The notes: generated by a model from the sequence alone, not told the origin. A DNA stretch of 64,000 nucleotides from Saprospiraceae bacterium (GCA_041736625.1 JBGSTG010000137.1:36896-100895), one strand, 5' to 3'; numbered from the stretch's first letter, positions 23,161 through 50,609 are shown. Program-made: numbers and translations.

Positions 23161-23280
23161 GAATGCGGAATGCGGAATGCGGAATGCGGAATGCGGAATG
23201 CGGAATAAACGGGCTCTTGGCTGCACGTTGGAATACCAAGAGGGGCTTATTCCGCATTCCGCATTCCGCGTTCCGCATTC
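23161..23280. repeat. Palindromic element built from tandem heptamers: (GAATGCG)x6, imperfect central hairpin, (CGCATTC)x4
   Basis: Six direct GAATGCG copies at 23161-23202 plus a partial GAAT. Central CTCTTGG (23214-23220) pairs with CCAAGAG (23236-23242). The inverted arm is attc + CGCATTC, CGCATTC, CGCGTTC, CGCATTC at 23249-23280. The element sits exactly between two convergent genes. Confidence 0.9.
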
Positions 23281-24497
23281 AAAAACCATTTCATCATCCC
23301 CGCCACCACCAAAGTGATGCCGCCTAGCGCCAGCCCATATTGCCCGGGCATGGTGAGCACGACATAAATGCCGAGGACAACCCAGACCAGCACCAAGCGG
23401 GTGATCTCGGCTGGCTTCACCCACGGACGATGGTCGAACGCCGCAATGGGGATTACCGAGGCCAGGGCGATCAACCCGAAAAAGACCCCTTCAAAGTAAG
23501 CCGGTTGCAGCGAACCGCCCAGGTACTTGCGCACGAGGATCAGAAAAAGAAGTCCGGACAGACCGAACAGAAACTGTACGAGTACGTAAGCGCCCAAAGG
23601 ACCCGAAAAAGAGGGAACGTACTTGCGATGCCGGCTTTTGTCCACTTCCGGAGGCGCCTTGTACCCGCCCAGGTATTCGGGCAGCCAGCCGGGGGGGGCA
23701 AAAAGGTATCGCAGCTTGTCGTTCCACGACGGCATACGGCGCAGGTTGCCGGCCATGTCGGCGTAATAATGCAGGTTGACCAGTGCCGGATTGTTGGTTC
23801 GAAGGGGTGTTGTGATGCCGTAGGTCGGCTCTTCCTCCTCCGCCTGGAACGTACCGAACAGCCTGTCCCAAATAATAAAGACACCGGAAAAATTTTTATC
23901 GATGTACTTGGGGTCCTTGCCGTGGTGCACCCGGTGGTGTGAAGGCGTGTGCATGACCCACTCCACCAGCCAGGGCAGGCGCCCGACTTTGCGCGTGTGT
24001 ATGATGAACTGGTAAAAATTGTGGAGCACCACCGCCGTCAGAAAGGTTTCCGGCTGAAAGCCCAGCATCGGGATGGGCAGGAAAAATCCAAACACCACCA
24101 AATCGGCCACCCACGAGCGCCGCAGCGCGATGGACAGGTTGAACTCCTCACTGGAATGATGCACCACGTGGGTGCCCCACAGGATGTTTATCACGTGGCT
24201 GAACCGATGTTCCCAGTAAAATACGAAATCGATAACCAATAAACAAAGCAATACCGACCACCAGGCATGGGGAATGTGGGCAATAGCCAGCCGGTGGAAG
24301 AAAATATCGATGAACAAAAACAACTTGATGCCTTCGGTGAACAGGTTGATCCCCTGGTTGCCGATGCCGCAGCTGATGTTGGTGAGGGTGTCCGGCAGAT
24401 TAAAATGTTTGTTCCGCTGAAAAAAGTCCAACGTGATTTCAAACAGGGTCAGAAACAGCAAAATGGGCACTGCCCAAAGTAAAAACTGTGGTGTCAT
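23247..24497 (-). CDS. Fatty-acid hydroxylase / sterol desaturase superfamily membrane oxygenase with an extra C-terminal membrane domain
   Basis: Histidine boxes HRFSH, WGTHVVHHSSEE and HHRVHHG, then NFSGVFIIWDRLFGTF. A further about 160 aa are hydrophobic. The last 11 codons (LNAERGMRNAE*) are supplied by the heptamer repeat. Confidence 0.8.
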   Translation of the reverse strand: MTPQFLLWAVPILLFLTLFEITLDFFQRNKHFNLPDTLTNISCGIGNQGINLFTEGIKLFLFIDIFFHRLAIAHIPHAWWSVLLCLLVIDFVFYWEHRFSHVINILWGTHVVHHSSEEFNLSIALRRSWVADLVVFGFFLPIPMLGFQPETFLTAVVLHNFYQFIIHTRKVGRLPWLVEWVMHTPSHHRVHHGKDPKYIDKNFSGVFIIWDRLFGTFQAEEEEPTYGITTPLRTNNPALVNLHYYADMAGNLRRMPSWNDKLRYLFAPPGWLPEYLGGYKAPPEVDKSRHRKYVPSFSGPLGAYVLVQFLFGLSGLLFLILVRKYLGGSLQPAYFEGVFFGLIALASVIPIAAFDHRPWVKPAEITRLVLVWVVLGIYVVLTMPGQYGLALGGITLVVAGMMKWFLNAERGMRNAE

Positions 24498-24613
24498 GAT
24501 GGATGAAGGATCAGTTAAGCCACAAAAATACTATACAATTTTGATCCGAAGCACCGTACCTTTGAGTTCTGATTAGCGAAACCCACTTTGAATCCCCATT
24601 ATACGCTGCATCA

Positions 24614-26350
24614 ATGAGCGCACTTTTTCCTCCTGCTCCTGAACTGAAAAATTTCGCAGAGGTATTGCAATGGCAAGGCGTTAACCATCCGAACAAGACC
24701 ACATTCCGATTTTTAACCGACGGCGAGACCACCGAAGACGCCATTACTTATGGCCGGCTGGACGCCCGCGCCAAAGGCATCGCCGACAAATTGTCGGCAC
24801 ACTGCCAAAAAGGCGACCGCGTGCTTTTGCTGCTCACGCCCGGAATCGATTTCATTGCCGCCTTTTTCGGCTGCCTTTACGCCGGTTGTGTCGCCATTCC
24901 CACCTACCCGCACCTGCGACAAAAGAAGGACGGCATCCTGACGCGCATCCTGAATGTCGCAGCCGACGCCACGCCCAAAGTTATTCTCTCCAACGCTATT
25001 GTGGAGCGCGCTTCCGCCGCTTTTTTTGCCGAAACAGCACACACGAAGGACATTCCGTGGGTTGACGTAACGCAGATCGCCCCAATGAACGACCCTGACT
25101 GGAACAGCACACCGATAGACACGGACGATCTGGCCTTTCTGCAATATACCTCCGGCTCAACCAACACCCCCAAGGGCGTGATGGTCAGCCACGGTAACCT
25201 GATGCACAACGCCATGACAATCACCAACGCTTTCGGTCTCACGCCGGAAGACAGGTGTGTGCTCTGGCTGCCTCCCTACCACGACATGGGCCTGATCGGC
25301 GGCATCCTCACCCAGGTATTTGCCGGCGTGGAAACCATCCTGATGGCGCCCGCTTATTTCCTGCAACGCCCCATCCGTTGGTTGCAAGCCATAACCCGCT
25401 ACCGGGCTACCGCCTCCGGCGGCCCCAATTTTACGTACGACTACGCCGTCAAAAAAGTAAAACCGGAACAACTCGCAGAGCTGGACCTGAGTACCCTGGC
25501 GGTGGCGTTCAGCGGCGCAGAACCCATCAACGCCGACACGTTGCTGCGTTTTGCCGACTATTTCGCCCCAACCGGCTTTCAGAACAAAGCCTTTCTGCCC
25601 TGCTACGGCCTTGCCGAAGGCACTCTGATGATTACCGCCCAGCGCCGGGGCAACGGCTTTGTGGCGCACCGTTTCGACAAATCCGCGCTCGAACAACACC
25701 GCGTGGTACCCGATCCGGAAAACGGCCGCCTATTGGTTGGCTGTGGTGACACCATAGACGATACGGTGTTGCGCATCGTAAATCCCGAAAGCCTGCTGCC
25801 CACACCGGAGGGCCAGATCGGCGAGATTTGGGCTGGCGGCAGCAGCGTCGCCAAGGGATACTGGAATCGGCCTGAAGCCACCCGGGAAACGTTCAAGGCC
25901 TTTATCGCCGGCACCGGCGAAGGACCGTTTATGCGCACCGGCGACCTGGGATTTGTCCAAAACAACCAGCTTTTCATCACCGGCCGCATCAAATCGCTCA
26001 TCATCATCGACGGCAGCAACCACTACCCGCAAGACATTGAATGGACCGTCGAGCACTGTCACCCGGATATACAACCCCACGGGGCTGCTGCTTTTTCCGT
26101 TGACCTCGACGGTGCAGAAAAACTCATCATTGTCGCCGAACTCGACCCGCGCATGTTGCGCGACCTCAACGACGAGCAGGCGCGTGCCATCAAACGCGCC
26201 ATCACCGCGGCGGTATCCAACGAACATACACTGAGCGTGCACGACATCGTTTTCACCGGACGACTGCCCAAAACCACCAGCGGCAAAATCAAACACCATG
26301 AATGCCGCGCCGAATACCTCGAATCACTAACCAACCCCCAGGCGCCATGA
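24614..26350 (+). CDS. Fatty acyl-AMP ligase (FAAL-type ANL enzyme), stand-alone
   Basis: LAFLQYTSGSTNTPKGVMVSHGNLMHN, WLPPYHDMGLIG, GYWNRPE, FMRTGDLGF, ITGRIKSLIIIDGSNHYPQDIE and LPKTTSGKI. The stop overlaps the next start (ATGA). Confidence 0.85.
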   Translation: MSALFPPAPELKNFAEVLQWQGVNHPNKTTFRFLTDGETTEDAITYGRLDARAKGIADKLSAHCQKGDRVLLLLTPGIDFIAAFFGCLYAGCVAIPTYPHLRQKKDGILTRILNVAADATPKVILSNAIVERASAAFFAETAHTKDIPWVDVTQIAPMNDPDWNSTPIDTDDLAFLQYTSGSTNTPKGVMVSHGNLMHNAMTITNAFGLTPEDRCVLWLPPYHDMGLIGGILTQVFAGVETILMAPAYFLQRPIRWLQAITRYRATASGGPNFTYDYAVKKVKPEQLAELDLSTLAVAFSGAEPINADTLLRFADYFAPTGFQNKAFLPCYGLAEGTLMITAQRRGNGFVAHRFDKSALEQHRVVPDPENGRLLVGCGDTIDDTVLRIVNPESLLPTPEGQIGEIWAGGSSVAKGYWNRPEATRETFKAFIAGTGEGPFMRTGDLGFVQNNQLFITGRIKSLIIIDGSNHYPQDIEWTVEHCHPDIQPHGAAAFSVDLDGAEKLIIVAELDPRMLRDLNDEQARAIKRAITAAVSNEHTLSVHDIVFTGRLPKTTSGKIKHHECRAEYLESLTNPQAP

Positions 26351-28836
26351 ACAAAGCGCAAGACACCACCTTAGAAGATATCCGGGATTGGCTCCTGAAC
26401 AACATCGCCCAACGCCTGGAAATGAAACCCGAAGATATCCGGCTCGACGAGCCGGTGACCGCCCTGGGCCTGTCGTCCCGCGAAGCCATCATGATTTCCG
26501 GCGAACTGGAAGAATGGCTGGACTGCGAATTGTCCCCCGAAATCCTGTACGAATACCCCGAGATCGGCCTGCTTTCGCAAAAGATCATGGAGAAGCTCCA
26601 AAAACACGCATCCGAAGCGCCGGTCTTCCGCTCGCGGCCACGCGAAGGCAAAGACGAGATGGCCTACGATTCGTTCGTCGATCTGGTGCAGGCCCGGGCC
26701 CGGGAGATTCCGAACAAGGACATATTCATTTTTCTGGCCGACGGCGAAACGGAGACGGTGCGCATCAACATGGCCCAACTCGACCGGCGCGCCCGCGCAG
26801 TAGCTGCCCATTTGCAACAACATGGGGCCGACGGAAAACCCGTGCTGCTGGTGTACCCGCCGGGCGTCGAGTTCATCACCGGTTTCCTCGGTTGCCTGTA
26901 CGCCAAAGCCATTGCCGTGCCGGCCTACCCGCCCACCAAAAACCGGGGCATGGAGCGCCTGGATACCATTGCCGCCGACTGCGATGCCCACTTCGCCCTC
27001 ACGACAGCCGAAGGGATGGCGCAAATGCTGCGGAACAAAAAAGTGTCCGACGACTCATTCATCCGCCGCATTCACCTGATGGCCTCCGACACCATACCCG
27101 ACGACGAGGCCGTTCATTGGAAAAAGCCCCTGCTGAGCCGGCCCGATCTGTGCTTCCTGCAGTACACCTCCGGGTCCACCGGCAACCCCAAAGGCGTCAT
27201 GGTGTCGCACGGCAACATCCTGCACAACGTGAAAACCATGCGCGAAGCCTTCGACCTGCCGGAACACTTCAACATGGTGAGCTGGCTACCCATGTTTCAC
27301 GACATGGGGCTGATCGGCCACGTGTTGGGGCCCATCAATGCCGGTTGCACACAGGTAACCATGACACCCAACGTGTTCCTGGAAAAACCCGTCCGCTGGC
27401 TCAAGGCCATCTCCGGGCTGGAGCAAGTGTACACCACCGCGCCAAATTTTGCATTCGACTATTGTGTCGACAAAATCACCGACGCCGAGATGCAAGGCAT
27501 CGATCTCCGTTCCTGGCAACTGGTGTGCAACGGTTCCGAACCGGTGCGCGAAGACACCATGACGCGCTTCACGCAGCGCTTTGCGCCTTATGGTTTCCGG
27601 CGCAACGTATTTTTCCCCTCTTACGGCATGGCCGAAGCTACCCTGTTGATCTCCGTACGCGCGGACCAGTCCGCAGAGCCCAAAGTAGCTTACCTGAATG
27701 CCGAATTGCTTGAAAACAACCAGGTGGTAGCCGACGATGCCGATGCCGACAGCGCCGTAGCCATGGTCAGTTGCGGCGCGGCGCGGCACGGGCGGCTGAT
27801 CATTGCAAATCCGGAGACGCTGGAAAAATTGCCCGAGAACCGGGTCGGGGAAATCTGGTATAAAAGCGACAGCGTAGCGCAAGGCTACTGGAAGAAACCC
27901 GAACTCACCGAACGCACCTTTCAGGCTTATACCGCCGGCAGCGGAGAAGGGCCTTTTATGCGCACCGGCGACCTGGGATTTCTCCAACAGGGTGAGGTGT
28001 TCATTACCGGCCGCCTCAAGGACCTGATCATCATTCGGGGGCGCAACCACTACCCGCAGGACATTGAGGAGACCGTGCAGGGCTGTCACCCTGCGCTCAC
28101 CATCAATGCAGGCGCCGCGTTCACCGTCGACGCCCACGGCGAAGAACAACTAGTACTGGTGCAGGAGGTCGAGCGTACTGCTTTGCGCGCGCTCGACACC
28201 GCAGCCGTATTCGACGACATCCGGTCGGCCATTGCCGAGGAGCACAACATTGCAGTGTACGCCATCGTACTGTTGGCGCCCGGACAACTACCCCGTACTA
28301 CGAGCGGCAAGATCCAGCGCCGCGCCTCCAAGCGCGGATTCCTGGAAAACACGCTCAACCGTGTAGGCGATTGGAAAATGGAGCGTATGGACGTTCCTTC
28401 CGAAGCGCTGCACGGTTGGAATGCGGAAGAACTGCTCCGTTTGCCGCTACCCGAACGAACCGGCAATACCCAACAATACCTGCTGCACCTCATCGCCAAA
28501 ACCATGCGCATGGCGCCGGACCAGATAGACCCCACCAAACCGATCATCAACCTCGGTTTTGACTCCATTCATGCCATCGAGATCAAAAACCGGATAGAGA
28601 CCGACTTCGGCTTCGAACTGCCAGCCACCCGGCTGATGGAGGGCATCAACATCAACGACCTGGCAAGAGAAGCTGCCGAAAAACTGAAAGTCCGTTCGGA
28701 AGCACCTAAACCCGTCATCGCCGACGCTCAGGAGGGAATTGACGCCGACACAGCACGCGACTTGCTACTGGACATCGACAACCTCTCTTCCGAAGAAGTA
28801 GAACGACTCCTGGCAGCCCTGGATAGCAACGAATGA
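26347..28836 (+). CDS. Carrier-FAAL-carrier tridomain protein (ACP-FAAL-ACP)
   Basis: N-terminal carrier: LEDIRDWLLNNIAQRL..ALGLSSREAIMISGELEEWL. FAAL core: CFLQYTSGSTGNPKGVMVSHGNILHN, WLPMFHDMGLIG, GYWKKPE, FMRTGDLGF, LPRTTSGKI. C-terminal carrier: INLGFDSIHAIEIKNRIETDFG. Start at 26347 (Met16 of the tracked ORF), coupled by ATGA to the upstream gene. Confidence 0.85.
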   Translation: MNKAQDTTLEDIRDWLLNNIAQRLEMKPEDIRLDEPVTALGLSSREAIMISGELEEWLDCELSPEILYEYPEIGLLSQKIMEKLQKHASEAPVFRSRPREGKDEMAYDSFVDLVQARAREIPNKDIFIFLADGETETVRINMAQLDRRARAVAAHLQQHGADGKPVLLVYPPGVEFITGFLGCLYAKAIAVPAYPPTKNRGMERLDTIAADCDAHFALTTAEGMAQMLRNKKVSDDSFIRRIHLMASDTIPDDEAVHWKKPLLSRPDLCFLQYTSGSTGNPKGVMVSHGNILHNVKTMREAFDLPEHFNMVSWLPMFHDMGLIGHVLGPINAGCTQVTMTPNVFLEKPVRWLKAISGLEQVYTTAPNFAFDYCVDKITDAEMQGIDLRSWQLVCNGSEPVREDTMTRFTQRFAPYGFRRNVFFPSYGMAEATLLISVRADQSAEPKVAYLNAELLENNQVVADDADADSAVAMVSCGAARHGRLIIANPETLEKLPENRVGEIWYKSDSVAQGYWKKPELTERTFQAYTAGSGEGPFMRTGDLGFLQQGEVFITGRLKDLIIIRGRNHYPQDIEETVQGCHPALTINAGAAFTVDAHGEEQLVLVQEVERTALRALDTAAVFDDIRSAIAEEHNIAVYAIVLLAPGQLPRTTSGKIQRRASKRGFLENTLNRVGDWKMERMDVPSEALHGWNAEELLRLPLPERTGNTQQYLLHLIAKTMRMAPDQIDPTKPIINLGFDSIHAIEIKNRIETDFGFELPATRLMEGININDLAREAAEKLKVRSEAPKPVIADAQEGIDADTARDLLLDIDNLSSEEVERLLAALDSNE

Positions 28837-28885
28837 GTCTGCCCCAAAGAATCGACCTCCCCATTCCGACTTTAACACCAAAACT

Positions 28886-31800
28886 ATGTCCATTTCCCAG
28901 GATAAAAAGGAGCTGCTGAAACAATTGCTGGCTAAAAAGGCCGGCGAACAGGAGCCCGTCGTTTACCCTCTTTCATACGGCCAGCAGGCGTTGTGGTTCC
29001 TGCACCAGAACGCGCCGGGCAATGCGGCATACAACGTAGCCTTCACCGCCCGCATTCTCTCCCCCATCGATGTGGAAGCGTGGAAACGCGCCTGTCAGCG
29101 CCTGATCAACCGCCACCCCATCCTGCGCACCACTTACCAGATGAAGGACGGGCAGCTGCGCCAGGTGGTGCATGGGCTGATGCCGCTCGATTTCACCTAT
29201 GAAGAGGTGGGCGGACTCGGTGAAATCGACCTGTACAATCGCGTACGCGAGCACTACGCCAAACCCTTTCACCTCGAAGCCGGACCCGTGTGCCGCGTGT
29301 ACCTGTTCCGCAAGTCGGCCGATCACCACGTGCTGCTGTTCAACATCCACCACATTGCCTGCGACGGCGTGTCGACGTGGATCCTGCTGGAGGAGCTCCG
29401 CGATCTGTACTCCGCGGAGAGCGAAGGCCGCCGGCCAGCGTTGCCGCCACTGGCATCCACTTACCGCGATTTTGTGACGGCGCAGCAGGAATTGCTGTCG
29501 GGGGAAAAAGGCGAAGCCATGTGGCAGTACTGGAAAAACCAACTGCAGGGTCCGTTGCCCACGCTCGACCTGAGCACCGACAAGGTCCGCCCGCTGGTTC
29601 AAACCTTCAATGGGGGGTCGGTACCCGTCAAACTCAATGCATCCCTAACCGAAAGCCTGCGCGCCCTGGCCAAAAACGAAGGCGCCACGCTGTTTGCCGT
29701 ACTGGCCTCCGCCTTTCAGGTGTTGTTGCACAGCCTGAGCGGGCAAGACGACGTCCTGGTGGGCACGCCCACTACCGGCCGCGAAAAAAAGGAATTTCAA
29801 CCCGTGGTCGGTTATTTCGTCAATCCGGTGGTGTTGCGCGCCCAATTTGCCGACAACCCCGGCTTTTCCACTTTTTTGCAGCGCAACAAACAAACCATAC
29901 TGGGTGCGTTGTCCAACCAGGACTTCCCGTTTCCCCACCTGGTGGAAAAACTGCAACTGCCGCGGGACAAAAGCCGCTCGGCGCTCTTCCAGGTGTTTTT
30001 TAGCCTGCTCAAAGCCCAGGGAGACGACGCCGTGCAGGCGGTGCTGTCCGAAGACGATCCGAACGGCGTCTACGCATGGGGCAATTTGCAGATTCAGGCG
30101 TACGACATCGGCCAGCAGGAAGGGCAGTTCGACCTCACCCTGGCCCTCACCGAGAGCATGGGCGCCGTGAGCGGCAAACTCAAATACAACGCCGACCTGT
30201 TCGAGCCCGAAACTGCCGCCCGCTTTGCCCTGCATTACCAAACGATTCTCGAAGACATTGTCCGAAACCCTTCCAAACCGGTTTCCGAAATCAACCTCCT
30301 GACCGAGGCAGAAAAAAGGTGGCTCATCGAAGACCTCAACCGGACGGAGACCCCCTACCCTGCCGACCAATGTATGCACCAGCTCTTCGAAGCACGTGTG
30401 GATGCAAACCCCGATCAGATAGCCCTGAGCATGCCGGCACTGGCCGAAAAAGGATTGCCTTCCCAATTCACTTACCGCCTGCTCGACCAGAAAGCCAACC
30501 AATTGGCGCACTACCTCCGGCGGCTGGGTGTTGGCCCGGAGGTCAAAGTGGGCATTTGCGTGCACCGTTCTCCCGAGATGGTCATCGGCATGCTGGCCAT
30601 CCTCAAGGCCGGAGGCGCCTATGTACCCCTGGATCCCGACTATCCCGCAGAGCGGCTGGCCTACATCATTGAGGATGCCGGCCTGACCATTGTGCTGACC
30701 CAGGAAACGGCCGCCGCTCACCTTCCCGAGGGAGCTGTTACGCCTGTTTTTATGGATAAGGACAGGCAGGGCATCGCCGCCGGGCCCACCACCAGGCCGT
30801 CAGTAGATGTGCACGCCGGCAACCTGGCGTACATCATCTACACCTCCGGTTCCACCGGAAACCCCAAAGGCGTACTCATCGAACACCGCGGCGTGGCCAA
30901 CAAGCTCACCAACTTCAAACAAGACGTCCGCTTCGACCACAACCACCGCTTTACGCTCATCGCTTCTTACGCGTTCGACGCCAGCATCGGCCAACTGTTC
31001 TTGCCCCTGGTACAGGGCTGCCCGTTGTTTCTGATGCCCAAGGACAAACAGAACGACCCGGATTATTTCTGGGACTTCATGTTCGAAAATCGCATCAATG
31101 TGGTGTACACCACCGCTTCCTTCCTGAACCCCATGCTCGACAGCCCGCGTGACCTCCGGCCGTTGGGCGTCCAATACGTGTTCCTCGGGGCCGAAACCTT
31201 TCCTTTGCCCCTGCTAAACAAAATCCGGGAAAAACTCAACCCGCCAACCATCGTGAACATGTACGGGCCGACGGAAACCACGGTCAACTGCGTGATGCAC
31301 ACGGTGACGGGCACACCGAAAGGGCAAATCCCGCTGGGGCATCCGCTTCCGAATTACAAAGCCTATCTGCTGGATAAAAACGGGCAGATCGTGCCCGTGG
31401 GCGTCACCGCCGAAATACACATTGGCGGCCCGGCCGTTGCCCGGGGTTATCACAACCAACCGGAAACCACTGCCGAACGTTTTATTGCGGACCCGTTCAG
31501 CGATGTACCCGGCGCCCGACTCTATAAAAGTGGCGATTTGGGCAAATACCTGCCCGACGGCAAAATCGTGTTCATGGGCCGCGTCGACAAACAGCTGAAA
31601 GTCAATGGCTACCGGATAGAACCCGGCGAGGTGGAGGCCGCCCTGCTGCAACACGAATCTGTTAAGGAAGCCCTGGTAATCGCCCGCGAAGACAGCGCCG
31701 GCAACCACCGACTGGTGGCCTACCTCATTCCCGCTCCTGGCACAGACGTTCCCGGCATTCAGGACATGCGGAATTTCCTGCAGCAAAAGTTACCGACCTA

Positions 31801-34261: not shown

Positions 34262-34282
34262 CCATCTGAAATCCGGTAAATT

Positions 34283-35434
34283 ATGAACACAAAACGCAAC
34301 GTATTGATTGAGGACACCACCCTGCGCGAGGGTGAACAAATGGCCCGGGTGGTGTTCACCGAAGACCAGAAGCGCCGCATCCTGGACGGGCTGTACGAGG
34401 CCCGCGTACCCTACGCCGAAGTAGGCATTCCGGTAATGGGCGCGGCCGAACTGCGCGACCTGCTCAACCTCATACGCGATTATCGCGAACCCATGCTCAT
34501 CGGATGGAACCGCGGCATGCGCTCCGATCTGGAGCACTCCGCACGCGCCGGCTTCCGCGGTGTGCACATCGGCATTCCCACTTCGGAGGCCCACCTGAAA
34601 GGCCAACTCAAAAAAGACACCAACTGGGTGCTCGACGTGGCCTGCGAACTGGTCGAATTCTGCCGCCAGGAGGGCATGGAGATCATCTCCGTGAGCGCCA
34701 TCGACATGAGCCGCTCCAAGATCGACTTTCTGCAGGAGTACGCCCGAACACTCGAACGGGCAGGAGCTACCCGGCTGCGACTGTCGGACACCATCGGCAT
34801 TTTTACACCGGAAAAAACGCGCGAAGTGGTGCGGGCCATCCGCTCGGTATCCAACATTACCCTGCAGATGCACATGCACAACGACTACGGCCTCTCGCTG
34901 GCGAATATGCTGGCGGGCGTAGACGAAGGCGCCGAGCAGGTGCAGGTGACGATCAACGGCCTGGGTGAACGCAACGGCATCACGGCCCTGCACCAGGCAG
35001 CGGTGGCCCTCGAACTGCTGTACAACTGCGAAACCGGCATCAACCTCAAGGCACTCCTTCCCCTGGCCCGGGAGGTAGCCGACTTCACCCACTTCCCCAT
35101 CGCCAACAACGAGCCAATCATCGGACGGGGCGCTTTCAGCCACGAGTCGGGCATACACGTAGACGGCATGCTCAAATCGAGAGACAGCTTCCAGCCTTTC
35201 GACCCCGAGATCGTAGGCCGGGAGCACGAGTTTGTACTGGGCAAACATTCGGGATCGAGCGCCCTGCAGTGGTTCCTGCACCAACAAGGCATCGAGGTGA
35301 CCCGCGACGAGGCCGCCGAACTGCTGCCGTTCGTGCGCGAGTTCGCCACCGCGCAAGGCGGAAGCCTGGAACCCAAGTTCTTAGGGCTGTTTTGGCAGTT
35401 ATATAAGTCCAAAACGATGGACAAGGTATTTTAG
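34283..35434 (+). CDS. HMGL-family 2-oxoacid:acyl-CoA condensing enzyme (homocitrate / isopropylmalate / citramalate synthase-like, short NifV-like form)
   Basis: IEDTTLREGEQ, repeated (beta/alpha)8 blocks, LRLSDTIGIFTPEKT, HMHNDYGLSLANMLAG, INGLGERNG and HESGIHVDG. 383 aa, with no LeuA-type C-terminal regulatory domain. Confidence 0.8.
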   Translation: MNTKRNVLIEDTTLREGEQMARVVFTEDQKRRILDGLYEARVPYAEVGIPVMGAAELRDLLNLIRDYREPMLIGWNRGMRSDLEHSARAGFRGVHIGIPTSEAHLKGQLKKDTNWVLDVACELVEFCRQEGMEIISVSAIDMSRSKIDFLQEYARTLERAGATRLRLSDTIGIFTPEKTREVVRAIRSVSNITLQMHMHNDYGLSLANMLAGVDEGAEQVQVTINGLGERNGITALHQAAVALELLYNCETGINLKALLPLAREVADFTHFPIANNEPIIGRGAFSHESGIHVDGMLKSRDSFQPFDPEIVGREHEFVLGKHSGSSALQWFLHQQGIEVTRDEAAELLPFVREFATAQGGSLEPKFLGLFWQLYKSKTMDKVF

Positions 35435-35449
35435 GTGTTTGACCACCCT

Positions 35450-36955
35450 TCACTCAACCCAGCCCGCCCCTTTCGCTTGTTCCAGTCTTTGCCACTCACC
35501 GTCTACTATGGCGCAGCCGAATTTGAAAATATATTGGTCCATGCCATGATCATCTACCACCCCTGTTTCAAACGCCGTCCCGTAACTCGCGCCGCTAAAT
35601 TCCTGAGGTGAGGTATCTAAAAAGTGGGTAGAGGCCTTAATGGATGTTTGCACAGCCTCCACGGACTGTCGAATCGCTTCCTGTGTGCGTGTATCCAGGT
35701 CCGCAAAACGCTGTTCGTGACCGGCATCCTCCTCCATGGTGTCATACCGACCCATAAAATGTCCGGCATCAAACAGACGAGGGGCTCCACCCAAGTGCTG
35801 AAAACCCAATAGTTGGGGTGGCAGTTGTGTTACGATATCCAGATGGTTGATGTGCAGGAAAGTTATATCCTCCAACAACGCATTATAGACCTCCCTGAAT
35901 TCCCGGTTGCCTACCCGGGGTGAGCCGAACACGTAAACACCAGCCACCGGGTAGTCGCCCAATGCCAAACGATGGGCTGCCAGCTGTGCCAGTGCAGCCC
36001 CCAGGCTGTGCCCGCAAACAAATATTTTTTTGTTGGCCCCATGCGCATTTACAGCAGACTGCACATGGGCCCACACGGAATCTAGTGACTGCTGAAACCC
36101 CCGGTGCACCCGACCGCGACCACCGAATGCTTCGGTCTTAAAAAAGTTCACGTCTGCTAGCGCATCTTTCCCACTGCTGGTGCCTCTGAAACAAACTACT
36201 ACATGATTTTCTTTGCCGGCTACAAACGCCTGGGTATCGGTGTCAGCATCTTCTATCCAGTGAAAGGTGCTATACGCCCATTGCCTGACGAGTTCCTCCA
36301 CGTAAGTGGGTTCGAAATAAGCCATGTGTGAGAAATCAGCCAGGGTCATGGCATTTTGCAGGCGGTAGTTGCCCCCTTGTTCATCAAAGCCAAAGACGAC
36401 AGATGGGATCACATCATTGCGGCCATACCGCGCTTTGTTGACCTCCCTGCCCATTTGACGGAGTGACCAGGCCGCACTCGTCCCAACCACGGGACCCCAT
36501 CCGCGGCACACCACTTCCTTGCCGTTCAGGTGCAGGATGGCATCGTCATGCTGCCCCCTGCTTACGGCTACACCAAGCGTTCGGGCATACCGGACTGCGG
36601 CGTCAAATACATCAAATAAGTCCTCCGATTCCTGTTCCGGAATGGGGCCATCGGTATTGACCACATAATGCAGAAACAGATGATCTATGACCGATTCCAA
36701 CGCTGCATCTGCCGACGCGTGTCGAAGCCTATTGCGGAATATGAGCAGCGACTCTGCCAGTTTAGGGTTGTGCGCGTGAATTTCCTTCAGCAGCCGATTC
36801 TGATTGGGCAGAAAGGTGAAGGCCCAGGTAATCTGGCGGATATCTTGCTGAAATAAAGGCAGACTATGTTTTAGTCGGAGCAGTGATTGCTGAATGCTTT
36901 CTTGTGTTGGAACAGGCATAATAAATTTGTTTAATAGCGGTTTCCACAGGTACAA
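35450..36955 (-). CDS. Class-3 (fungal-type) lipase-domain protein with an N-terminal extension of about 230 aa of unknown function
   Basis: VVVCFRGTSSGKDALADV, RVHRGF, nucleophile elbow FVCGHSLGAALAQLAA and VYVFGSPRVGN. No signal peptide is obvious. Confidence 0.75.
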   Translation of the reverse strand: MYLWKPLLNKFIMPVPTQESIQQSLLRLKHSLPLFQQDIRQITWAFTFLPNQNRLLKEIHAHNPKLAESLLIFRNRLRHASADAALESVIDHLFLHYVVNTDGPIPEQESEDLFDVFDAAVRYARTLGVAVSRGQHDDAILHLNGKEVVCRGWGPVVGTSAAWSLRQMGREVNKARYGRNDVIPSVVFGFDEQGGNYRLQNAMTLADFSHMAYFEPTYVEELVRQWAYSTFHWIEDADTDTQAFVAGKENHVVVCFRGTSSGKDALADVNFFKTEAFGGRGRVHRGFQQSLDSVWAHVQSAVNAHGANKKIFVCGHSLGAALAQLAAHRLALGDYPVAGVYVFGSPRVGNREFREVYNALLEDITFLHINHLDIVTQLPPQLLGFQHLGGAPRLFDAGHFMGRYDTMEEDAGHEQRFADLDTRTQEAIRQSVEAVQTSIKASTHFLDTSPQEFSGASYGTAFETGVVDDHGMDQYIFKFGCAIVDGEWQRLEQAKGAGWVE

Positions 36956-36976
36956 TTTAGCTGATGAGACGGGTTT

Positions 36977-37963
36977 CTACCGCCCCCCCAGCCAAGCCAG
37001 CGTCTCGCCCACCGACTGTTCCAAGGGTCTGTACGAGTATCCCAATTCCCGGATGGCCTTCTCACTGGAAAAATCCCAGTAACGGGTGTACTTGCGCACC
37101 AACTCGGGGGTGATCATCGGCGTGGCGCCAAACATACGCGCCATACGGATTTGGGCGTGCGAGAAGGCCAGCAGCATGGGCAAAGGCACACCGTACATCC
37201 GGTACGTCCTCCCACTGACGCGGCCTATCGTGTCGAAAAATTGCCGGAACGATGCATTTTCGCCACCCAGGATGTACCGTTCGCCCGGCCGGCCCTTTTG
37301 CATGGCCAGCAGGTGCCCGTTCACCACATCATCCACGTGCACGTAACTGCCTGTTGACGAGCCGTCTCCCGGCAAAAAGCGAAATTTACCCCGGATGTAC
37401 CGTTGCATGACCACTACCTCGCCATTGCTGTCGCCCAGGGCCCCTGGGCCAAACACGCGGGTGGGATTAACGATGACAACCTCCGGCCCTTCGCCAATGT
37501 TGGAACGGATGTACGCCTCCAGCCTGGCTTTGGAGCGCTCGTAAGCCGTCATGTGTGCCGGATCACCCTGGGCCGACTCGTCCAGCACGCGCCCGGGAGG
37601 GCTGGCGCCCATCACCCCGCCTGTGGAGGTGACCACCACCCGCGCCACACCCGCCTGGCGGGCGGCGTGCAGCACCGACAACCCGCCGAGAAAATTGATG
37701 CGGTCGAATATTTCCGGGTCCGGGGACCACGCCCGCGCAAATGCCGCCAGGTGGAACGCTTTGGAGCAACCGGCAATCGCGACATCAATACTTTCGCGCC
37801 GGTCCAGGTCGCCCGTAAACAAGCGAACCTGGGGGTGTGCGAGCGTGTTTGCCTTTTGTGGGTCGCGCACCAATGCATGCACAAAAAAGCCTTCGTCGAC
37901 CAACCTACTGACCAGTGCGGAGCCAATGAGCCCTGTAGCTCCGGTGACAAATATTTTTTCCAT
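36977..37963 (-). CDS. Extended short-chain dehydrogenase (NAD-dependent epimerase/dehydratase; 3-beta-HSD / dihydroflavonol-reductase-like)
   Basis: MEKIFVTGATGLIGSALVSRL Rossmann motif, catalytic YERSK (YxxxK) and VNPTRVFGPG. 328 aa. Confidence 0.85.
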   Translation of the reverse strand: MEKIFVTGATGLIGSALVSRLVDEGFFVHALVRDPQKANTLAHPQVRLFTGDLDRRESIDVAIAGCSKAFHLAAFARAWSPDPEIFDRINFLGGLSVLHAARQAGVARVVVTSTGGVMGASPPGRVLDESAQGDPAHMTAYERSKARLEAYIRSNIGEGPEVVIVNPTRVFGPGALGDSNGEVVVMQRYIRGKFRFLPGDGSSTGSYVHVDDVVNGHLLAMQKGRPGERYILGGENASFRQFFDTIGRVSGRTYRMYGVPLPMLLAFSHAQIRMARMFGATPMITPELVRKYTRYWDFSSEKAIRELGYSYRPLEQSVGETLAWLGGR

Positions 37964-37966
37964 CCC

Positions 37967-38692
37967 TTATGCCCTTTCGATTTTCATATTCGGGTTAAAG
38001 TACAGGGCAAACACGTCGGCCGACAGGGTAAGTGCCAGATGGATGACCACCACAGCCCAGATGTTGCCCGTGCTCAGGGTGATCCAGCACAACAGGATGC
38101 CTAAGGGTACCGAGCCGATGGTCTCGCCCATGCCTTTGTGGATGTGGGCCAGGGCGTAAACAAGTACATTGACAGCAATCGCCACATACGCGCCCATCAA
38201 AGGCATACAGGCAAACAGAAAAAATCCCCTGAACAGGAATTCGTAGGCCACAATAAAGGCCGAAGAGGCCAGCAGGGAAGAAAATAACAGCGCAGGTGTC
38301 CAGCGCGCCCGACGGATCAGCGGATAAACAGCGTAGTGCGCCGGCCGTCGGGCTTGCAGCCAGTTGACGACCAGCACAAAACCGCCAAAACCCGCCATCC
38401 AGGCGTACGTTGCGTTATGGGTTACAGGCCCTGCCCCAAAGTCGCTGAGCGGCAGGCGCAACCAAAAGACGATCACCCATGCCGGGAGCAGGCCCAGCAA
38501 CAGGAAGCCGGACCATTTGTTGGCCCACAACACATGCCTCGTCTGACCCTCGTCGGCGCCATAACGATCCAACAGGCGGCGTTCCAGCGATACGGAGACC
38601 AGCAGGGCGAGATAAGTCAAAAAACCCACCGTAAAACAAACCAGCGCCGTAAGCGGCGCCAGATAGCGGGCATCCCAGGAAAAATCGACCAT
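37967..38692 (-). CDS. CPBP-family (CAAX/Abi) intramembrane glutamic protease
   Basis: Polytopic membrane protein. AYEFLFRGFFL (EExxxR-like motif 1), YALAHIHKG (motif with His) and VVIHLALTLS. Separated by 3 nt from the SDR gene. Confidence 0.7.
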   Translation of the reverse strand: MVDFSWDARYLAPLTALVCFTVGFLTYLALLVSVSLERRLLDRYGADEGQTRHVLWANKWSGFLLLGLLPAWVIVFWLRLPLSDFGAGPVTHNATYAWMAGFGGFVLVVNWLQARRPAHYAVYPLIRRARWTPALLFSSLLASSAFIVAYEFLFRGFFLFACMPLMGAYVAIAVNVLVYALAHIHKGMGETIGSVPLGILLCWITLSTGNIWAVVVIHLALTLSADVFALYFNPNMKIERA

Positions 38693-38731
38693 AGCATTCC
38701 GTGATTATTGCGCGAAGATAGGTCTGCGTGG

Positions 38732-39415
38732 CTATTTACCGGCTAATTCGACGGCTGGTACTTCCTCCAGAGAAAACGTGTCTATCTCCCGGTCGGATGC
38801 CAGGTGGCACGCATACCCTGCACGCACCGGCACGTGCCGGAGGTGCCACAGCCTGCCCTCCAGTAAAACCTGGTTGCCCAGCGCGTTTACCGTGTCCAAA
38901 GCGTTGTACAGACCGCGGCCCTCTGCCTTGCACACCGCTTCTTTTTTGGTCCAGATGGAAAAAAACAAGTCGACAGGGTCTTCCAGCGTATGCAACAGGC
39001 GCCACTCCTCGGGACACAGGATGGAGCGGAAATCGCGCAGGCGAATCGCCGCCATTTGCTCTACATCGATACCAACCGGGCCCCCATGGGAAACAGCCAC
39101 TACAACCCAGTCACCCGAGTGCGCGATATTGAAATCAGGAAATCCGGTCAGCGACGGGCGCTTGTAGTCGTTCCAGGTTACCTGGTCCAACACATCAGGC
39201 CGGTCTTCCAGCCCAAGTGCCCGGAGCAACAACAGCCGGCCAAAAAACGTTGCCTGCCGGTCGGGCCACCGGACGTACCGGAGGATGCCAGCTCTGGCCA
39301 AAGGCGGAAGCCGGGCCATGTTTTCCGCCCATACGTCTGCGGGGAGCGGCTGGGCATTGCGGCAATACAGGATTTGCATGCTACTAAAAGCGCAAAGGTA
39401 TGGAAGATCGCGCAT
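38732..39415 (-). CDS. Sfp-type 4'-phosphopantetheinyl transferase
   Basis: FNIAHSGDWVVVAVS, GPVGIDVEQ and FFSIWTKKEAVCKAEGRG are the three PPTase motifs. An alternative start is MQILY at 39379. Confidence 0.8.
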   Translation of the reverse strand: MRDLPYLCAFSSMQILYCRNAQPLPADVWAENMARLPPLARAGILRYVRWPDRQATFFGRLLLLRALGLEDRPDVLDQVTWNDYKRPSLTGFPDFNIAHSGDWVVVAVSHGGPVGIDVEQMAAIRLRDFRSILCPEEWRLLHTLEDPVDLFFSIWTKKEAVCKAEGRGLYNALDTVNALGNQVLLEGRLWHLRHVPVRAGYACHLASDREIDTFSLEEVPAVELAGK

Positions 39416-39549: not shown

Positions 39550-39729
39550 ATGGAAAAATACCAAAACAAGTACCGCATACCCTCTGCCCGCGCTCAATGG
39601 TGGGACTATGGCTGGAACGGCGCTTATTTCATCACCATTTGCACCCAAAACCGTGAGCATTATTTCGGCAACATCCAGCATGGTCGGATGACGCTTTCGC
39701 CGGTGGGGGTTATTGCCGATGTTTTATGA
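39550..39729 (+). pseudogene. N-terminal fragment (59 codons) of a RayT/IS200-like Y1 (HUH) transposase
   Basis: MEKYQNKYRIPSARAQWWDYGWNGAYFITICTQNREHYFGNIQHGRMTLSPVGVIADVL* matches the conserved N-terminus of REP-associated tyrosine transposase-like proteins. It stops before the HUH and catalytic Tyr motifs, and no continuation is seen in any frame. A TAttTTTG box lies at 39465-39472 upstream. Confidence 0.6.
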
Positions 39730-39811
39730 CGCTGTTTGATGATGCAATTTATCCCCAATCCAAAAAAACAAGCCAGCCGATTGGTAATAATTCCGTACTT
39801 ATCTTTGCCCC

Positions 39812-50500: not shown

Positions 50501-50609
50501 GTTCCGATCAGGCCCGGGAAAAAATTGAAGCCGGCAAATCTTCCGACAACAGGTTAATTCCTCCTGTTTGGTTTTACCTTTGTGTGACCTATTTCTAACG
50601 CGATACTCC

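What the first reader, a model, noticed from the sequence alone, without database searches (positions are those of the whole stretch)
24614..39415. Orphan ~15 kb lipid/NRPS cluster with two FAALs, three carrier domains, one C-A-T module and no conventional release domain
Two convergent operons meet with only 15 nt between their stop codons (35434 and 35450).

Plus strand:
- stand-alone FAAL
- ACP-FAAL-ACP
- C-A-T-KASIII-KASIII' megasynthase
- HMGL-family condensing enzyme

Minus strand:
- Sfp-type PPTase
- CPBP protease
- extended SDR
- class-3 lipase

Together this gives two fatty-acid activation sites, one amino-acid activation site and three phosphopantetheine carriers with a dedicated PPTase. 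There is no TE, R or terminal C release domain, no MbtH and no transporter. The leading C domain directly follows a FAAL-carrier protein, which is the layout of lipo-initiation. I do not recognise this gene set as any characterised pathway. The product is probably a small lipo-amino-acid-type metabolite built from two acyl chains and one amino acid.
Basis: partly seen in the sequence, partly recalled or inferred. Interest (0 to 1): 0.82.

Follow-up and report, generated by a model that had tools for sequence, protein, structure and literature searches.

The report
Lipo-amino-acid cluster with chain-fusing terminus
A Saprospiraceae gene cluster joins two fatty-acid loaders and one amino-acid module to a built-in pair of ketosynthase-like domains that probably fuses two chains head-to-head instead of using a normal release domain; its product is unknown, and I found no published study of this widespread design.

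Summary
All eight genes and every domain call hold, as does the 15-nt gap between the convergent stop codons.

- **Terminus.** The "KASIII-KASIII'" end is the key feature. KASIII-1 keeps Glu/Cys/His/Asn. KASIII' has lost Cys/His/Asn but keeps one invariant Glu that aligns with OleA Glu117 (LstB Glu60). It is therefore a fused pseudo-heterodimer of the OleA/LstAB/NocG type. It most likely ends the assembly line by non-decarboxylative Claisen fusion of the T-bound N-acyl-aminoacyl chain with a second FAAL-loaded acyl-ACP. This would explain the missing TE/R domain.
- **Family size.** The K2-type domain sits at the C-terminus of about 200 protein clusters (50% identity), either stand-alone or closing NRPS/PKS lines.
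- **Saprospiraceae subgroup.** It has an unrecognised, invariant A-domain code (DAGYFGMVNK). It also always carries an adjacent homocitrate-synthase-like gene whose presumed catalytic Glu is replaced by Ile.
- **Co-conservation is partial.** Megasynthase plus HMGL always travel together. Hydroxylase plus FAAL plus ACP-FAAL-ACP form a second unit. The minus-strand operon is adjacent only here and in one close relative, but PPTase, SDR and hydrolase genes recur next to related synthetases.
- **Extent.** The cluster extends left to 23247, and probably to 22362.

No published match was found. This is a new variant of a known kind.

The parts
22362..23159 (+). Asp/Arg beta-hydroxylase family protein (LpxO/OlsC-like lipid 2-hydroxylase); probable tailoring enzyme
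   Evidence: Pfam PF05118, 193 bits. A 72%-identical homolog lies directly upstream of FAAL1 and ACP-FAAL-ACP in L023. It is absent from this position in L003, so membership is probable, not certain.
23247..24497 (-). Membrane di-iron fatty-acid hydroxylase (His boxes, 6 predicted TM segments), divergent from FAAL1
   Evidence: Pfam FA_hydroxylase, 106 bits; weak OlsE match. TM segments and His boxes are shown. The gene is conserved next to FAAL1 in L003, L024 and L038-40. The left synteny break with L003 falls right after it.
24614..26350 (+). FAAL1, stand-alone fatty acyl-AMP ligase; proposed to load ACP_N
   Evidence: Pfam AMP-binding plus DIP2-like C-domain. FAAL families rank first in NCBIfam. 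It is 47-48% identical to the stand-alone FAALs that precede an N-terminal ACP in L001 and L016.
26347..28836 (+). ACP_N - FAAL2 - ACP_C tridomain protein. ACP_N is about 26377-26577, FAAL2 about 26689-28359, ACP_C about 28474-28668.
   Evidence: Pfam finds two PP-binding stretches plus AMP-binding. Carrier Ser motifs are GLSS and GFDS. P0241 is 100% identical and 829 aa long, which places the start at 26347. FAAL2-ACP_C is 41% identical to the FAAL-ACP proteins that directly precede C-A-T-K1-K2 in L027, L028 and L013. ACP_N is 34-42% identical to the N-terminal ACP of the L001/L016 PKS.
28886..32128 (+). NRPS module C (28961-30325, HHIACDG at residue 155), A (30386-31858, code DAGYFGMVNK), T (31943-32128, Ser1047)
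   Evidence: Pfam and NCBIfam. The 10-residue code was extracted with anchors validated by canonical Gly and Ser codes in relatives. The code is identical in homologs of 60-92% identity. The C domain is LCL-like.
32240..33265 (+). KASIII-1 (K1): catalytically complete thiolase-fold domain with Glu1213, Cys1238 (32597-32599), His1381 and Asn1418
   Evidence: Pfam ACP_syn_III/_C; FabH models 176-184 bits. All four residues are invariant in 121/121 family members. AF2 model: pLDDT 89.7. Fold matches to FabH, OleA and PqsD with target-normalised TM-scores of 0.75-0.91.
33374..34261 (+). KASIII' (K2): degenerate partner domain. Cys is replaced by Ala1589, His by Pro1718 and Asn by Leu1749. It retains Glu1554 (33545-33547), which aligns to OleA Glu117.
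   Evidence: Alignment to E. coli FabH. The best PDB matches for its N-terminal half are X. campestris OleA structures, with SEPAVAS aligned to LEPSTAS. Glu is present in 120/121 homologs and the triad is absent in all. The K2-type domain is always C-terminal in its roughly 200 clusters.
34283..35434 (+). HMGL-like / homocitrate-synthase-like protein with Ile140 (34700-34702) where the family has an otherwise invariant Glu
   Evidence: Pfam HMGL-like plus HCS_D2. NifV model scores 367 bits, below its 463 cut-off. The gene is always immediately downstream of the megasynthase in L003, L018-22 and L038-40. The motif is SAID in 18/18 close homologs and AED in 102/102 others.
35450..36955 (-). Class-3 lipase-fold alpha/beta hydrolase (GHSLG at residue 315; no signal peptide or TM segment; N-terminal ~240 aa unassigned); candidate thioester hydrolase
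   Evidence: Pfam Lipase_3, 89 bits; weak Thioesterase hit at E 6e-4. It is adjacent only in the window, L003 and L038-40. Type II thioesterases occupy the analogous place in L034 and L035.
36977..37963 (-). Extended SDR of the 3-beta-HSD/HpnA/OleD type; candidate beta-keto reductase
   Evidence: Pfam Epimerase and 3Beta_HSD. NCBIfam: HpnA 243 bits, SdmB 138, OleD 82, all below cut-off. SDR genes follow related megasynthases in L026 and L027.
37967..38692 (-). CPBP/Rce1-like membrane protein (5 TM segments); role unknown
   Evidence: Pfam PF02517, 43 bits. No counterpart was found next to related loci.
38732..39415 (-). Sfp-type 4'-phosphopantetheinyl transferase
   Evidence: Pfam ACPS plus AASDHPPT_N. 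PPTase genes also follow diKASIII synthetases in L001, L027 and L030.

Best explanation
This is a thiotemplated two-chain-fusion pathway for a hydroxylated lipo-amino-acid lipid.

**Proposed steps (all inferred unless marked):**
1. The PPTase activates three carriers.
2. FAAL1 loads one fatty acid on ACP_N, and the internal FAAL2 loads another on ACP_C.
3. The A domain loads an unidentified alpha-amino acid (code DAGYFGMVNK) on T.
4. The C domain N-acylates that amino acid with the ACP_C acyl chain.
5. The fused K1-K2 pair works as one OleA/LstAB-like active site.
   - Cys1238 of K1 takes the N-acyl-aminoacyl chain from the adjacent T domain.
   - Glu1554 of the catalytically dead K2 deprotonates C-alpha of the acyl-ACP_N thioester.
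   - A non-decarboxylative Claisen condensation joins the two chains. This gives an alpha-alkyl, beta-keto, gamma-(acylamino) acyl thioester and ends the assembly line without a TE or R domain.
6. The 3-beta-HSD-type SDR reduces the beta-keto group, and the Lipase_3 hydrolase frees the product. Alternatively, the free beta-keto acid decarboxylates to an amino-ketone lipid.
7. The di-iron hydroxylase and the LpxO-like hydroxylase decorate the acyl chains.
8. The HMGL-like enzyme either makes the unusual amino acid's keto-acid precursor or has a new role.

**Shown here:** domain content, residue patterns, family distribution and synteny.
**Inferred:** substrate order, chemistry and product.
For: **K1-K2 residue pattern**
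- K1 has invariant Glu/Cys/His/Asn. K2 lacks the triad in all 121 sequences but keeps the Glu in 120/121.
- K2's Glu aligns to OleA Glu117, and K2's N-terminal half matches OleA best in the PDB.
- FabH has no Glu at that position.
- The same division of labour is documented for LstA (Cys/His/Asn) and LstB (Glu60) (PMC12141560).
- E/C/H/N is the stated signature of the head-to-head ketosynthases OleA, PpyS and NocG. NocG uses FAAL-ACP-tethered acyls (PMC9486936).
- The AF2 model packs the two halves confidently (pTM 0.93).

**Position in assembly lines**
- The K2-type domain is always C-terminal. It occurs on stand-alone didomains and on proteins whose lengths fit A-T-, C-A-T- and multimodule fusions. 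This fits a termination role.

**Homology of parts**
- FAAL1/ACP_N and FAAL2-ACP_C match loading units of related lines.

**Accessory genes**
- PPTase, SDR and thioesterase genes recur beside related synthetases.
- The SDR belongs to the OleD/3-beta-HSD group.
- A lipid hydroxylase is conserved next to FAAL1 and AFA.
- The genes are tightly spaced on each strand.
Against: - There is no biochemical data. Which chain goes on Cys and which is deprotonated is inference only.
- K1 as a whole scores higher against FabH than against OleA. The fold search does not separate the two types.
- K1's own Glu1213 is also invariant and is not explained.
- Most family members have only one FAAL or acyl line. 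In those, the second substrate must come from elsewhere or the reaction differs.
- The minus-strand genes (SDR, lipase, CPBP) are not co-conserved in L018-L024.
- The C domain is not of the classical starter type.
- The amino acid and the HMGL role are unknown.
Confidence: 0.5

Rival explanations
1. K1 is an ordinary decarboxylative FabH-like ketosynthase and K2 is only a structural partner. K1 would extend the T-bound N-acyl-aminoacyl chain with malonyl-ACP, giving a gamma-amino-beta-keto (statine-like) acid.
For: K1's best NCBIfam and PDB matches are FabH. The Cys-His-Asn triad is the same as in decarboxylating KASIII enzymes.
Against: Both K1 and K2 carry the invariant Glu typical of non-decarboxylative head-to-head ketosynthases, which FabH lacks. 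This reading leaves the second FAAL and ACP_N without a role.
Confidence: 0.15
2. The didomain is a Dieckmann-type cyclase. Cys1238 holds the aminoacyl carbonyl, and the Glu deprotonates C-alpha of the N-acyl chain within the same molecule. This would release a 3-alkyl/acyl tetramic acid.
For: Many relatives have a PKS module before C-A-T. The amino-acid codes in the family are diverse: Gly, Ser, aromatic-type, Gln, Ala. My own recollection is that tetramates show similar diversity. Only one acyl line is present in most relatives.
Against: The window has no PKS module, so the N-acyl chain lacks a beta-keto group and its amide alpha-proton is poorly acidic. The related PKS modules carry DH and KR domains. 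The extra FAAL1/ACP_N and the SDR would be unexplained.
Confidence: 0.1
3. This is a lipstatin/nocardiolactone-like beta-lactone pathway. K1-K2 would act as LstAB, the SDR as LstD/OleD, one ANL enzyme as the beta-lactone synthetase (LstC/OleC), and the NRPS module would esterify an amino acid onto a hydroxylated chain.
For: At superfamily level every Lst/Ole function has a counterpart: a KASIII pair, a 3-beta-HSD-type SDR, ANL enzymes, an alpha/beta hydrolase and one NRPS module. Hydroxylases are present and could make the ester acceptor.
Against: Both ANL enzymes score best as FAALs, and one is embedded between two ACPs. The T domain is fused directly to K1, which points to the T-bound chain as a K1 substrate. 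No formyltransferase is present. OleC membership was not specifically tested.
Confidence: 0.08
4. The minus-strand operon (lipase, SDR, CPBP, perhaps PPTase) is merely adjacent. The functional unit would be only the plus-strand genes and the hydroxylase(s).
For: Relatives L018-L022 have megasynthase plus HMGL without these genes, and L023/L024 have the FAAL unit without them. The synteny block shared with L003 also includes housekeeping hemL, so block conservation between close relatives proves little.
Against: Three carriers need a PPTase. PPTase, SDR and thioesterase genes recur next to distant diKASIII synthetases. Only 15 nt separate the two operons. The chemistry needs a reductase and a hydrolase.
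Confidence: 0.3

Closest known systems
Lipstatin pathway LstAB (KAS-III heterodimer) with LstC, LstD and LstE, Streptomyces toxytricini
   Same: Two KASIII-like polypeptides form one active unit. One carries Cys/His/Asn and the other an essential Glu. The unit condenses two fatty acyl thioesters without decarboxylation (PMC12141560). From my own recollection, the lst operon also encodes a 3-beta-HSD-type reductase and a single NRPS module. In the window, K1 and K2 show the same residue split.
   Different: Here the two halves are fused to each other and to the C-terminus of the NRPS module. The substrates are carrier-bound through FAALs rather than CoA esters. There is no recognisable OleC/LstC beta-lactone synthetase or formyltransferase. 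An HMGL-like enzyme and lipid hydroxylases are added. The host is a Bacteroidota member.
OleABCD olefin/beta-lactone pathway (OleA thiolase, Xanthomonas campestris)
   Same: K2's N-terminal half matches OleA best in the PDB, and its Glu1554 aligns with Glu117. The SDR gives weak OleD hits.
   Different: OleA is a homodimer in which both subunits are active, and it uses acyl-CoAs. No OleB or OleC orthologs are present. K1 overall scores closer to FabH.
NocG/NocH of nocuolin A biosynthesis (cyanobacteria)
   Same: FAAL-ACP-tethered fatty acyl chains are joined by a ketosynthase with E/C/H/N through non-decarboxylative Claisen condensation (PMC9486936).
   Different: NocG is a stand-alone single-domain ketosynthase. 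One FAAL-ACP loads both chains. No NRPS module is involved.
FadD32-Pks13-CmrA mycolic acid condensation (my own knowledge)
   Same: A FAAL loads an N-terminal ACP, a second chain sits on a C-terminal ACP, a condensing enzyme makes an alpha-alkyl beta-keto product, and an SDR reduces it. Both window FAALs score well on FadD32 models.
   Different: Pks13 uses a type I KS and a carboxylated extender, so the condensation is decarboxylative. It releases the product through a TE onto trehalose. No amino acid is involved.
CorB/MxnB pyrone-forming KASIII homologs
   Same: KASIII homologs that fuse two separately built chains head-to-head at the end of assembly lines. Such cases are described as very few (PMC12304814).
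   Different: They are stand-alone homodimers acting on beta-keto intermediates to form alpha-pyrones. The similarity is weak (CorB E = 0.08 to K2).
Homocitrate / isopropylmalate / citramalate synthases (LeuA-NifV family)
   Same: The HMGL-like TIM barrel plus HCS_D2 domain is present. The LREGEQ, HxH and SGIH motifs are conserved.
   Different: The score falls below every NCBIfam cut-off. The Glu of the xAED strand is Ile in the whole megasynthase-linked clade. From memory, that Glu corresponds to the catalytic Glu218 of M. tuberculosis LeuA.

Membership tests
OleA/LstAB-type head-to-head (non-decarboxylative) ketosynthases | KASIII/thiolase fold forming a dimer | tested here: met
   Pfam ACP_syn_III/_C, found twice. 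AF2 model of the didomain: pLDDT 89.7, pTM 0.93. Foldseek target-normalised TM-scores of 0.75-0.91 to FabH, OleA and PqsD for one half of the model.
OleA/LstAB-type head-to-head (non-decarboxylative) ketosynthases | Cys-His-Asn triad in the acyl-accepting subunit | tested here: met
   K1 Cys1238, His1381 and Asn1418 are invariant in 121/121 sequences.
OleA/LstAB-type head-to-head (non-decarboxylative) ketosynthases | Catalytic Glu supplied by the partner subunit (OleA E117, LstB E60, NocG E100) | tested here: met
   K2 Glu1554 aligns to OleA Glu117 and is present in 120/121 sequences. FabH has no Glu there. Spatial proximity to Cys1238 was not measured.
OleA/LstAB-type head-to-head (non-decarboxylative) ketosynthases | Non-decarboxylative Claisen condensation of two acyl thioesters | not testable with these tools
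   This needs enzyme assays or labelling experiments.
OleABCD / lipstatin-type beta-lactone pathway | OleC/LstC-type beta-lactone synthetase, and OleB for olefins | tested here: inconclusive
   Both ANL enzymes rank FAAL families first. No OleC model appears among the 25 listed hits, but only 25 of about 100 hits are shown. The hydrolase is Lipase_3, not the OleB type.
Lipo-initiating NRPS (starter C domain fed by FAAL-ACP) | FAAL and ACP directly upstream of the first C domain | tested here: met
   FAAL2-ACP_C ends 49 nt before the megasynthase gene. The same order occurs in L027, L028 and L013.
Lipo-initiating NRPS (starter C domain fed by FAAL-ACP) | C domain of the starter (Cs) subtype | tested here: not met
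   The best PDB matches are LCL domains: Txo2 247 bits and TycC6 243 bits. The starter domains RzmA (54 bits) and CDA-C1 (46 bits) match weakly. The FAAL-fed PvdL C domain is intermediate at 146 bits. The HHxxxDG motif is intact.
Fatty acyl-AMP ligase (FAAL) | FAAL-type sequence rather than acyl-CoA synthetase | tested here: inconclusive
   FAAL models rank first (464-470 bits) but fall below their curated cut-offs of 600-1100. The PF23024 DIP2-like C-domain is present. The FAAL-specific insertion was not examined.
Homocitrate/isopropylmalate synthase | Curated family score | tested here: not met
   NifV scores 367 against a 463 cut-off. All LeuA and CimA models are also below cut-off.
Homocitrate/isopropylmalate synthase | Metal and 2-oxoacid ligands (Arg-Glu/Asp, HxH) together with the catalytic Glu of the xAED strand | tested here: not met
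   The ligand motifs are kept, but the Glu is Ile140 in 18/18 close homologs and Glu in 102/102 others. That this Glu is catalytic rests on my memory of MtLeuA E218 / HCS E155-E167. A literature check did not confirm or refute it.
Sfp-type PPTase | Two-domain ACPS fold of about 220 aa | tested here: met
   PF01648 plus PF22624, 227 aa.

The most novel reading that the evidence does not exclude
The KASIII-KASIII' didomain is a general termination module of NRPS and PKS-NRPS lines that has not been recognised as such. It would off-load aminoacyl or peptidyl thioesters by non-decarboxylative Claisen fusion with a second carrier-bound acyl chain. The products would be alpha-branched gamma-(acylamino)-beta-keto/hydroxy acids or, after decarboxylation, ceramide-like N-acyl amino-ketone lipids made without a PLP enzyme. 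In the Saprospiraceae branch it would be obligatorily coupled to a neofunctionalised homocitrate-synthase homolog (catalytic Glu replaced by Ile) that supplies or processes a non-proteinogenic building block.
Probability: 0.3. Interest if true: 0.8.

Novelty: new variant of a known kind. Interest (0 to 1): 0.62.

Why it matters
[quoted passage not shown] Here that chemistry appears hard-wired as the last two domains of an NRPS module. The same terminal didomain closes about 200 sequence clusters of stand-alone, NRPS and PKS-NRPS proteins across several phyla.

If the mechanism holds, several things follow:
- It defines a new release logic that genome-mining tools currently leave unexplained ("no TE").
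- It predicts a class of two-tailed amino-lipids.
- It offers a compact part for engineering C-C-linked lipid-amino-acid hybrids.

The tightly linked HMGL-like enzyme, which lacks the family's conserved Glu, is a separate enzymological puzzle.

Tried and rejected
1. **Generic NRPS hits.** The genome-collection scan with the whole megasynthase returned mostly generic NRPSs (L004-L012). These matched only C-A-T and said nothing about this system. Only L003 was useful.
2. **Missed homologs.** The first protein search with the didomain listed nothing above 49% identity. I briefly read that as "no close relatives". That was wrong: 60-65%-identical megasynthases exist. The word-index search had simply not listed them.
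3. **Ser-only family idea.** From six loci I first thought the wider family was essentially Ser-specific and therefore ceramide-like. A broader sample of 38 representatives overturned this. It showed roughly equal groups of Gly, Ser and aromatic-type codes (8-9 each), plus Gln, Ala and Asn-like codes. The ceramide idea can hold for a subset at most.
4. **hemL.** The class-III aminotransferase at 39812-41137 is HemL, not a pathway enzyme.
5. **Fold search.** The fold search of the didomain could not separate OleA-type from FabH-type.
6. **Promoter and terminator scans.** Counts were no higher than in shuffled sequence, and no clear terminator lies between the convergent genes.
7. **Metagenome scan.** It found only 45-48% relatives.
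8. **Literature.** Seven searches found no paper on a diKASIII-terminated NRPS. The library lacks many subscription-journal papers and there was no MIBiG comparison, so "unpublished" is not proven.
9. **Amino acid.** It could not be assigned. DAGYFGMVNK resembles no code I know. The nearest is the Thr-type xxxxIGMVHK tail.
10. **Flexirubin/dialkylresorcinol and aryl-polyene clusters.** I considered and rejected these: there is no NRPS in those systems, and no DarA or KS/CLF genes here.


Full report
**1. Observation**

Plus-strand genes, by Pfam:
- a stand-alone ligase with AMP-binding and the DIP2-like C-domain
- a PP-binding / AMP-binding / PP-binding protein
- a 1791-aa Condensation / AMP-binding / PP-binding / ACP_syn_III(+C) x2 megasynthase
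- an HMGL-like plus HCS_D2 protein

Minus-strand genes, by Pfam:
- Lipase_3
- an Epimerase/3Beta_HSD extended SDR
- an Rce1-like CPBP protein
- an ACPS/AASDHPPT_N PPTase

Further checks:
- NCBIfam ranks FAAL families first for both ligases, though below their curated cut-offs.
- The convergent stops are 15 nt apart, and gaps within each strand set are -4 to 57 nt.
- The tridomain gene most likely starts at 26347, overlapping the FAAL1 stop as ATGA. An identical database protein is 829 aa long.
- No MbtH motif, TE or R domain, or neighbouring transporter is present.

**2. Source and extent**

SprB repeats and a T9SS sorting domain in the neighbours point to Bacteroidota.

A Saprospiraceae MAG (JANRJH010000006.1, L003) carries the same locus, with 92% amino-acid identity for the megasynthase.
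- It is collinear with window 23256-39405 at 88% nucleotide identity, and again across hemL (39722-41129).
- The flanks differ on both sides.

The left boundary therefore includes the divergently transcribed membrane fatty-acid hydroxylase (23247-24497). The aminotransferase on the right is HemL and is not part of the pathway.

The LpxO/OlsC-family hydroxylase at 22362-23159 has a 72%-identical homolog directly upstream of FAAL1 and ACP-FAAL-ACP in another Bacteroidota contig, L023. It probably belongs too.

**3. The terminal didomain**

*K1* (about residues 1119-1460) has Glu1213, Cys1238, His1381 and Asn1418.

*K2* (about residues 1497-1791), aligned to E. coli FabH, has:
- Ala in place of Cys112
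- Pro in place of His244
- Leu in place of Asn274

The N-terminal half of K2 finds Xanthomonas OleA structures as its best PDB matches. Its SEPAVAS segment aligns with OleA's LEPSTAS. Counting along the printed alignment places that Glu at OleA Glu117.

In an alignment with 120 homologs:
- the four K1 residues are invariant
- the K2 Glu is present in 120 of 121 sequences
- the K2 triad is absent from all

An AF2 model of the didomain is confident (pLDDT 89.7, pTM 0.93), with only the inter-domain linker disordered. Fold search returns FabH, OleA and PqsD without separating them.

This residue split matches published systems:
- In LstA/LstB, LstA carries Cys128/His271/Asn305 and LstB an essential Glu60. 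Together they condense two acyl chains without decarboxylation (PMC12141560).
- E/C/H/N is the shared signature of OleA, PpyS and NocG. NocG acts on FAAL-ACP-tethered acyls (PMC9486936).

I therefore read K1-K2 as a fused pseudo-heterodimer of this enzyme class.

**4. The family**

An exhaustive search with K2 found 200 clusters (50% identity) at E <= 1e-30. The domain is always at the C-terminus. The protein lengths fall into classes of about:
- 670 aa, the stand-alone didomain
- 1240 aa, A-T-K1-K2
- 1730-1840 aa, C-A-T-K1-K2
- 2400-3900 aa, multimodular proteins

Sampled neighbourhoods:
- FAAL / one PKS module with an embedded luciferase-like oxygenase / C-A-T / diKASIII. This occurs in Shivajiella, another Bacteroidota member, Nonomuraea and others.
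- FAAL-ACP / C-A-T-K1-K2 without a PKS module (L027, L028).
- A stand-alone didomain beside kdsB-kdsA-kdsC-lptC-lptA-lptB.

Genes that follow such synthetases:
- PPTase
- adh_short SDR
- type II thioesterase
- an MGDG-synthase-like glycosyltransferase
- a CDP-alcohol phosphatidyltransferase-like protein
- a CarS-like protein
- WS/DGAT
- P450

This set suggests a keto reduction, a hydrolytic release and lipid-type head-group chemistry.

The last A domain before the didomain is diverse across 38 representatives. There are roughly nine Gly codes, nine Ser codes and eight or nine aromatic-type codes. There are also two Gln codes, one Ala, one Asn-like and a few unassigned. The code-extraction anchors were validated by the canonical Gly and Ser codes they recover.

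**5. What is special about the window's subgroup**

*The A-domain code.* Window, L003, L018 and L021 share DAGYFGMVNK, although their megasynthases are only 60-92% identical. In the broader sample the code occurs only in this subgroup. I cannot assign it. Asp235 and Lys517 indicate an alpha-amino acid.

*The HMGL-like gene.*
- It sits immediately downstream of the megasynthase in every relative.
- It is more conserved than the megasynthase (about 80% against 60-65%).
- All 18 members of this clade read SAID where 102 of 102 other homologs read AED. The LREGEQ, HxH and SGIH motifs are kept.
- From memory, this Glu is the catalytic base candidate (MtLeuA Glu218, yeast HCS Glu155). A literature look-up did not settle this.
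- The protein also fails every NCBIfam cut-off.
- It may supply the keto-acid precursor of the unusual amino acid, as IPMS homologs do in other NRPS clusters, or it may have a changed activity. This is unresolved.

*The second loading system.*
- FAAL1 is 47-48% identical to the stand-alone FAAL of L001 and L016.
- ACP_N is 34-42% identical to the N-terminal ACP of their PKS.
- FAAL2-ACP_C is 41% identical to the FAAL-ACP that feeds C-A-T-K1-K2 in L027, L028 and L013.

The tridomain protein thus looks like the related PKS with its KS-AT-DH-KR core replaced by a FAAL. That gives two loaded carriers on one protein.

**6. Co-conservation**

The genes behave as three modules:
- Module II (megasynthase plus HMGL) is always intact. 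It can stand alone in L018-L020.
- Module I (hydroxylase plus FAAL1 plus ACP-FAAL-ACP) can also stand alone, in L023 and L024. It abuts module II in the window, L003, L021 and L038-40. In L021 a vanadium-haloperoxidase-like gene is inserted between them.
- Module III (lipase, SDR, CPBP, PPTase) is adjacent only in the window, L003 and identical Logan contigs.

The synteny block shared with L003 also contains hemL, so that block alone does not prove linkage. The argument for module III is functional:
- the carriers need a PPTase
- PPTase, SDR and thioesterase genes recur beside distant family members
- the SDR is of the 3-beta-HSD/OleD group

I put about 0.3 on the minus-strand genes being merely adjacent.

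**7. Mechanism**

The favoured scheme is stated under the best explanation.

Shown here:
- domain content
- residue patterns
- C-terminal position across the family
- homology of the loading units
- synteny

Inferred:
- FAAL1 loads ACP_N and FAAL2 loads ACP_C.
- The C domain N-acylates the T-bound amino acid. Its HHIACDG motif is intact, but it is LCL-like rather than starter-type.
- Cys1238 takes the upstream T-bound chain, by analogy with KS domains.
- Glu1554 deprotonates the acyl-ACP_N.

The predicted product class is an alpha-alkyl, beta-keto or beta-hydroxy, gamma-(acylamino) acid bearing hydroxylated chains, or its decarboxylated amino-ketone.

The rivals cannot be excluded without experiments:
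- decarboxylative extension with malonyl-ACP
- intramolecular Dieckmann cyclisation
- a lipstatin-like beta-lactone
- adjacency only for the minus-strand operon

**8. Novelty**

Every enzyme family involved is known, and head-to-head Claisen fusion is known. What I found in no paper:
- its fusion as the terminal didomain of an NRPS module
- the pairing with a dual FAAL/ACP loader
- the Glu-to-Ile HMGL clade

The library is incomplete and no MIBiG comparison was possible. I rate this a new variant of a known kind, with interest 0.62.

Noticed in passing
window 34700-34702 (HMGL residue 140): The megasynthase-linked HMGL clade has Ile where all other sampled homocitrate/isopropylmalate-synthase homologs have Glu (SAID versus AED; 18/18 against 0/102). 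The metal and 2-oxoacid motifs are retained. This suggests a changed catalytic mechanism.
   Followed up: partly
L014 10001-16296 and L015 10001-16021: Stand-alone KASIII-KASIII' didomain genes sit directly upstream of kdsB-kdsA-kdsC-lptC-lptA-lptB in two large genomes. This hints at a role for the didomain in outer-membrane or LPS lipid synthesis, independent of any NRPS.
   Followed up: no
L021 2179-3684 and 9298-9951: A related Saprospiraceae cluster has a vanadium-haloperoxidase-like gene (DUF6851/VCPO_2nd) between ACP-FAAL-ACP and the megasynthase. It also has an unannotated 217-aa ORF between the megasynthase and HMGL. This may be a halogenated variant.
   Followed up: no
L027 12033-14779; L026 6768-9271; L035 11995-13971: Related C-A-T-K1-K2 synthetases are followed by several kinds of gene. 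L027 has a PPTase, an SDR and an MGDG-synthase-like GT28. L026 has an SDR and a tocopherol-cyclase-like protein. L035 has a type II thioesterase and a class I/II aminotransferase. This points to glycolipid-like products in parts of the family.
   Followed up: partly
The search for homologous proteins: The word-indexed protein search with the didomain listed nothing above 49% identity. Yet 60-65%-identical full-length megasynthases exist in the same collection. Absence of close hits from that tool is not evidence that they are absent.
   Followed up: yes
window 49605-50396 (+): A bacteriorhodopsin-like gene (PF01036, 146 bits) lies about 10 kb right of the cluster, with an acyl-CoA carboxyltransferase at 50568-52151 next to it. 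Both are outside the synteny block shared with L003.
   Followed up: no
window 9001-16701 (+) and 16698-20336 (-): There are two very large ORFs. The 1212-aa ORF has SprB repeats, an HYR domain, a T9SS C-terminal sorting domain and an N-terminal redoxin-like region. The 2566-aa ORF was not scanned.
   Followed up: no
window 32522-32524 (K1 Glu1213): K1 also carries an invariant Glu at the OleA-Glu117-equivalent position. In a pseudo-dimer this residue would point into the catalytically dead K2 pocket. Its conservation is unexplained.
   Followed up: no
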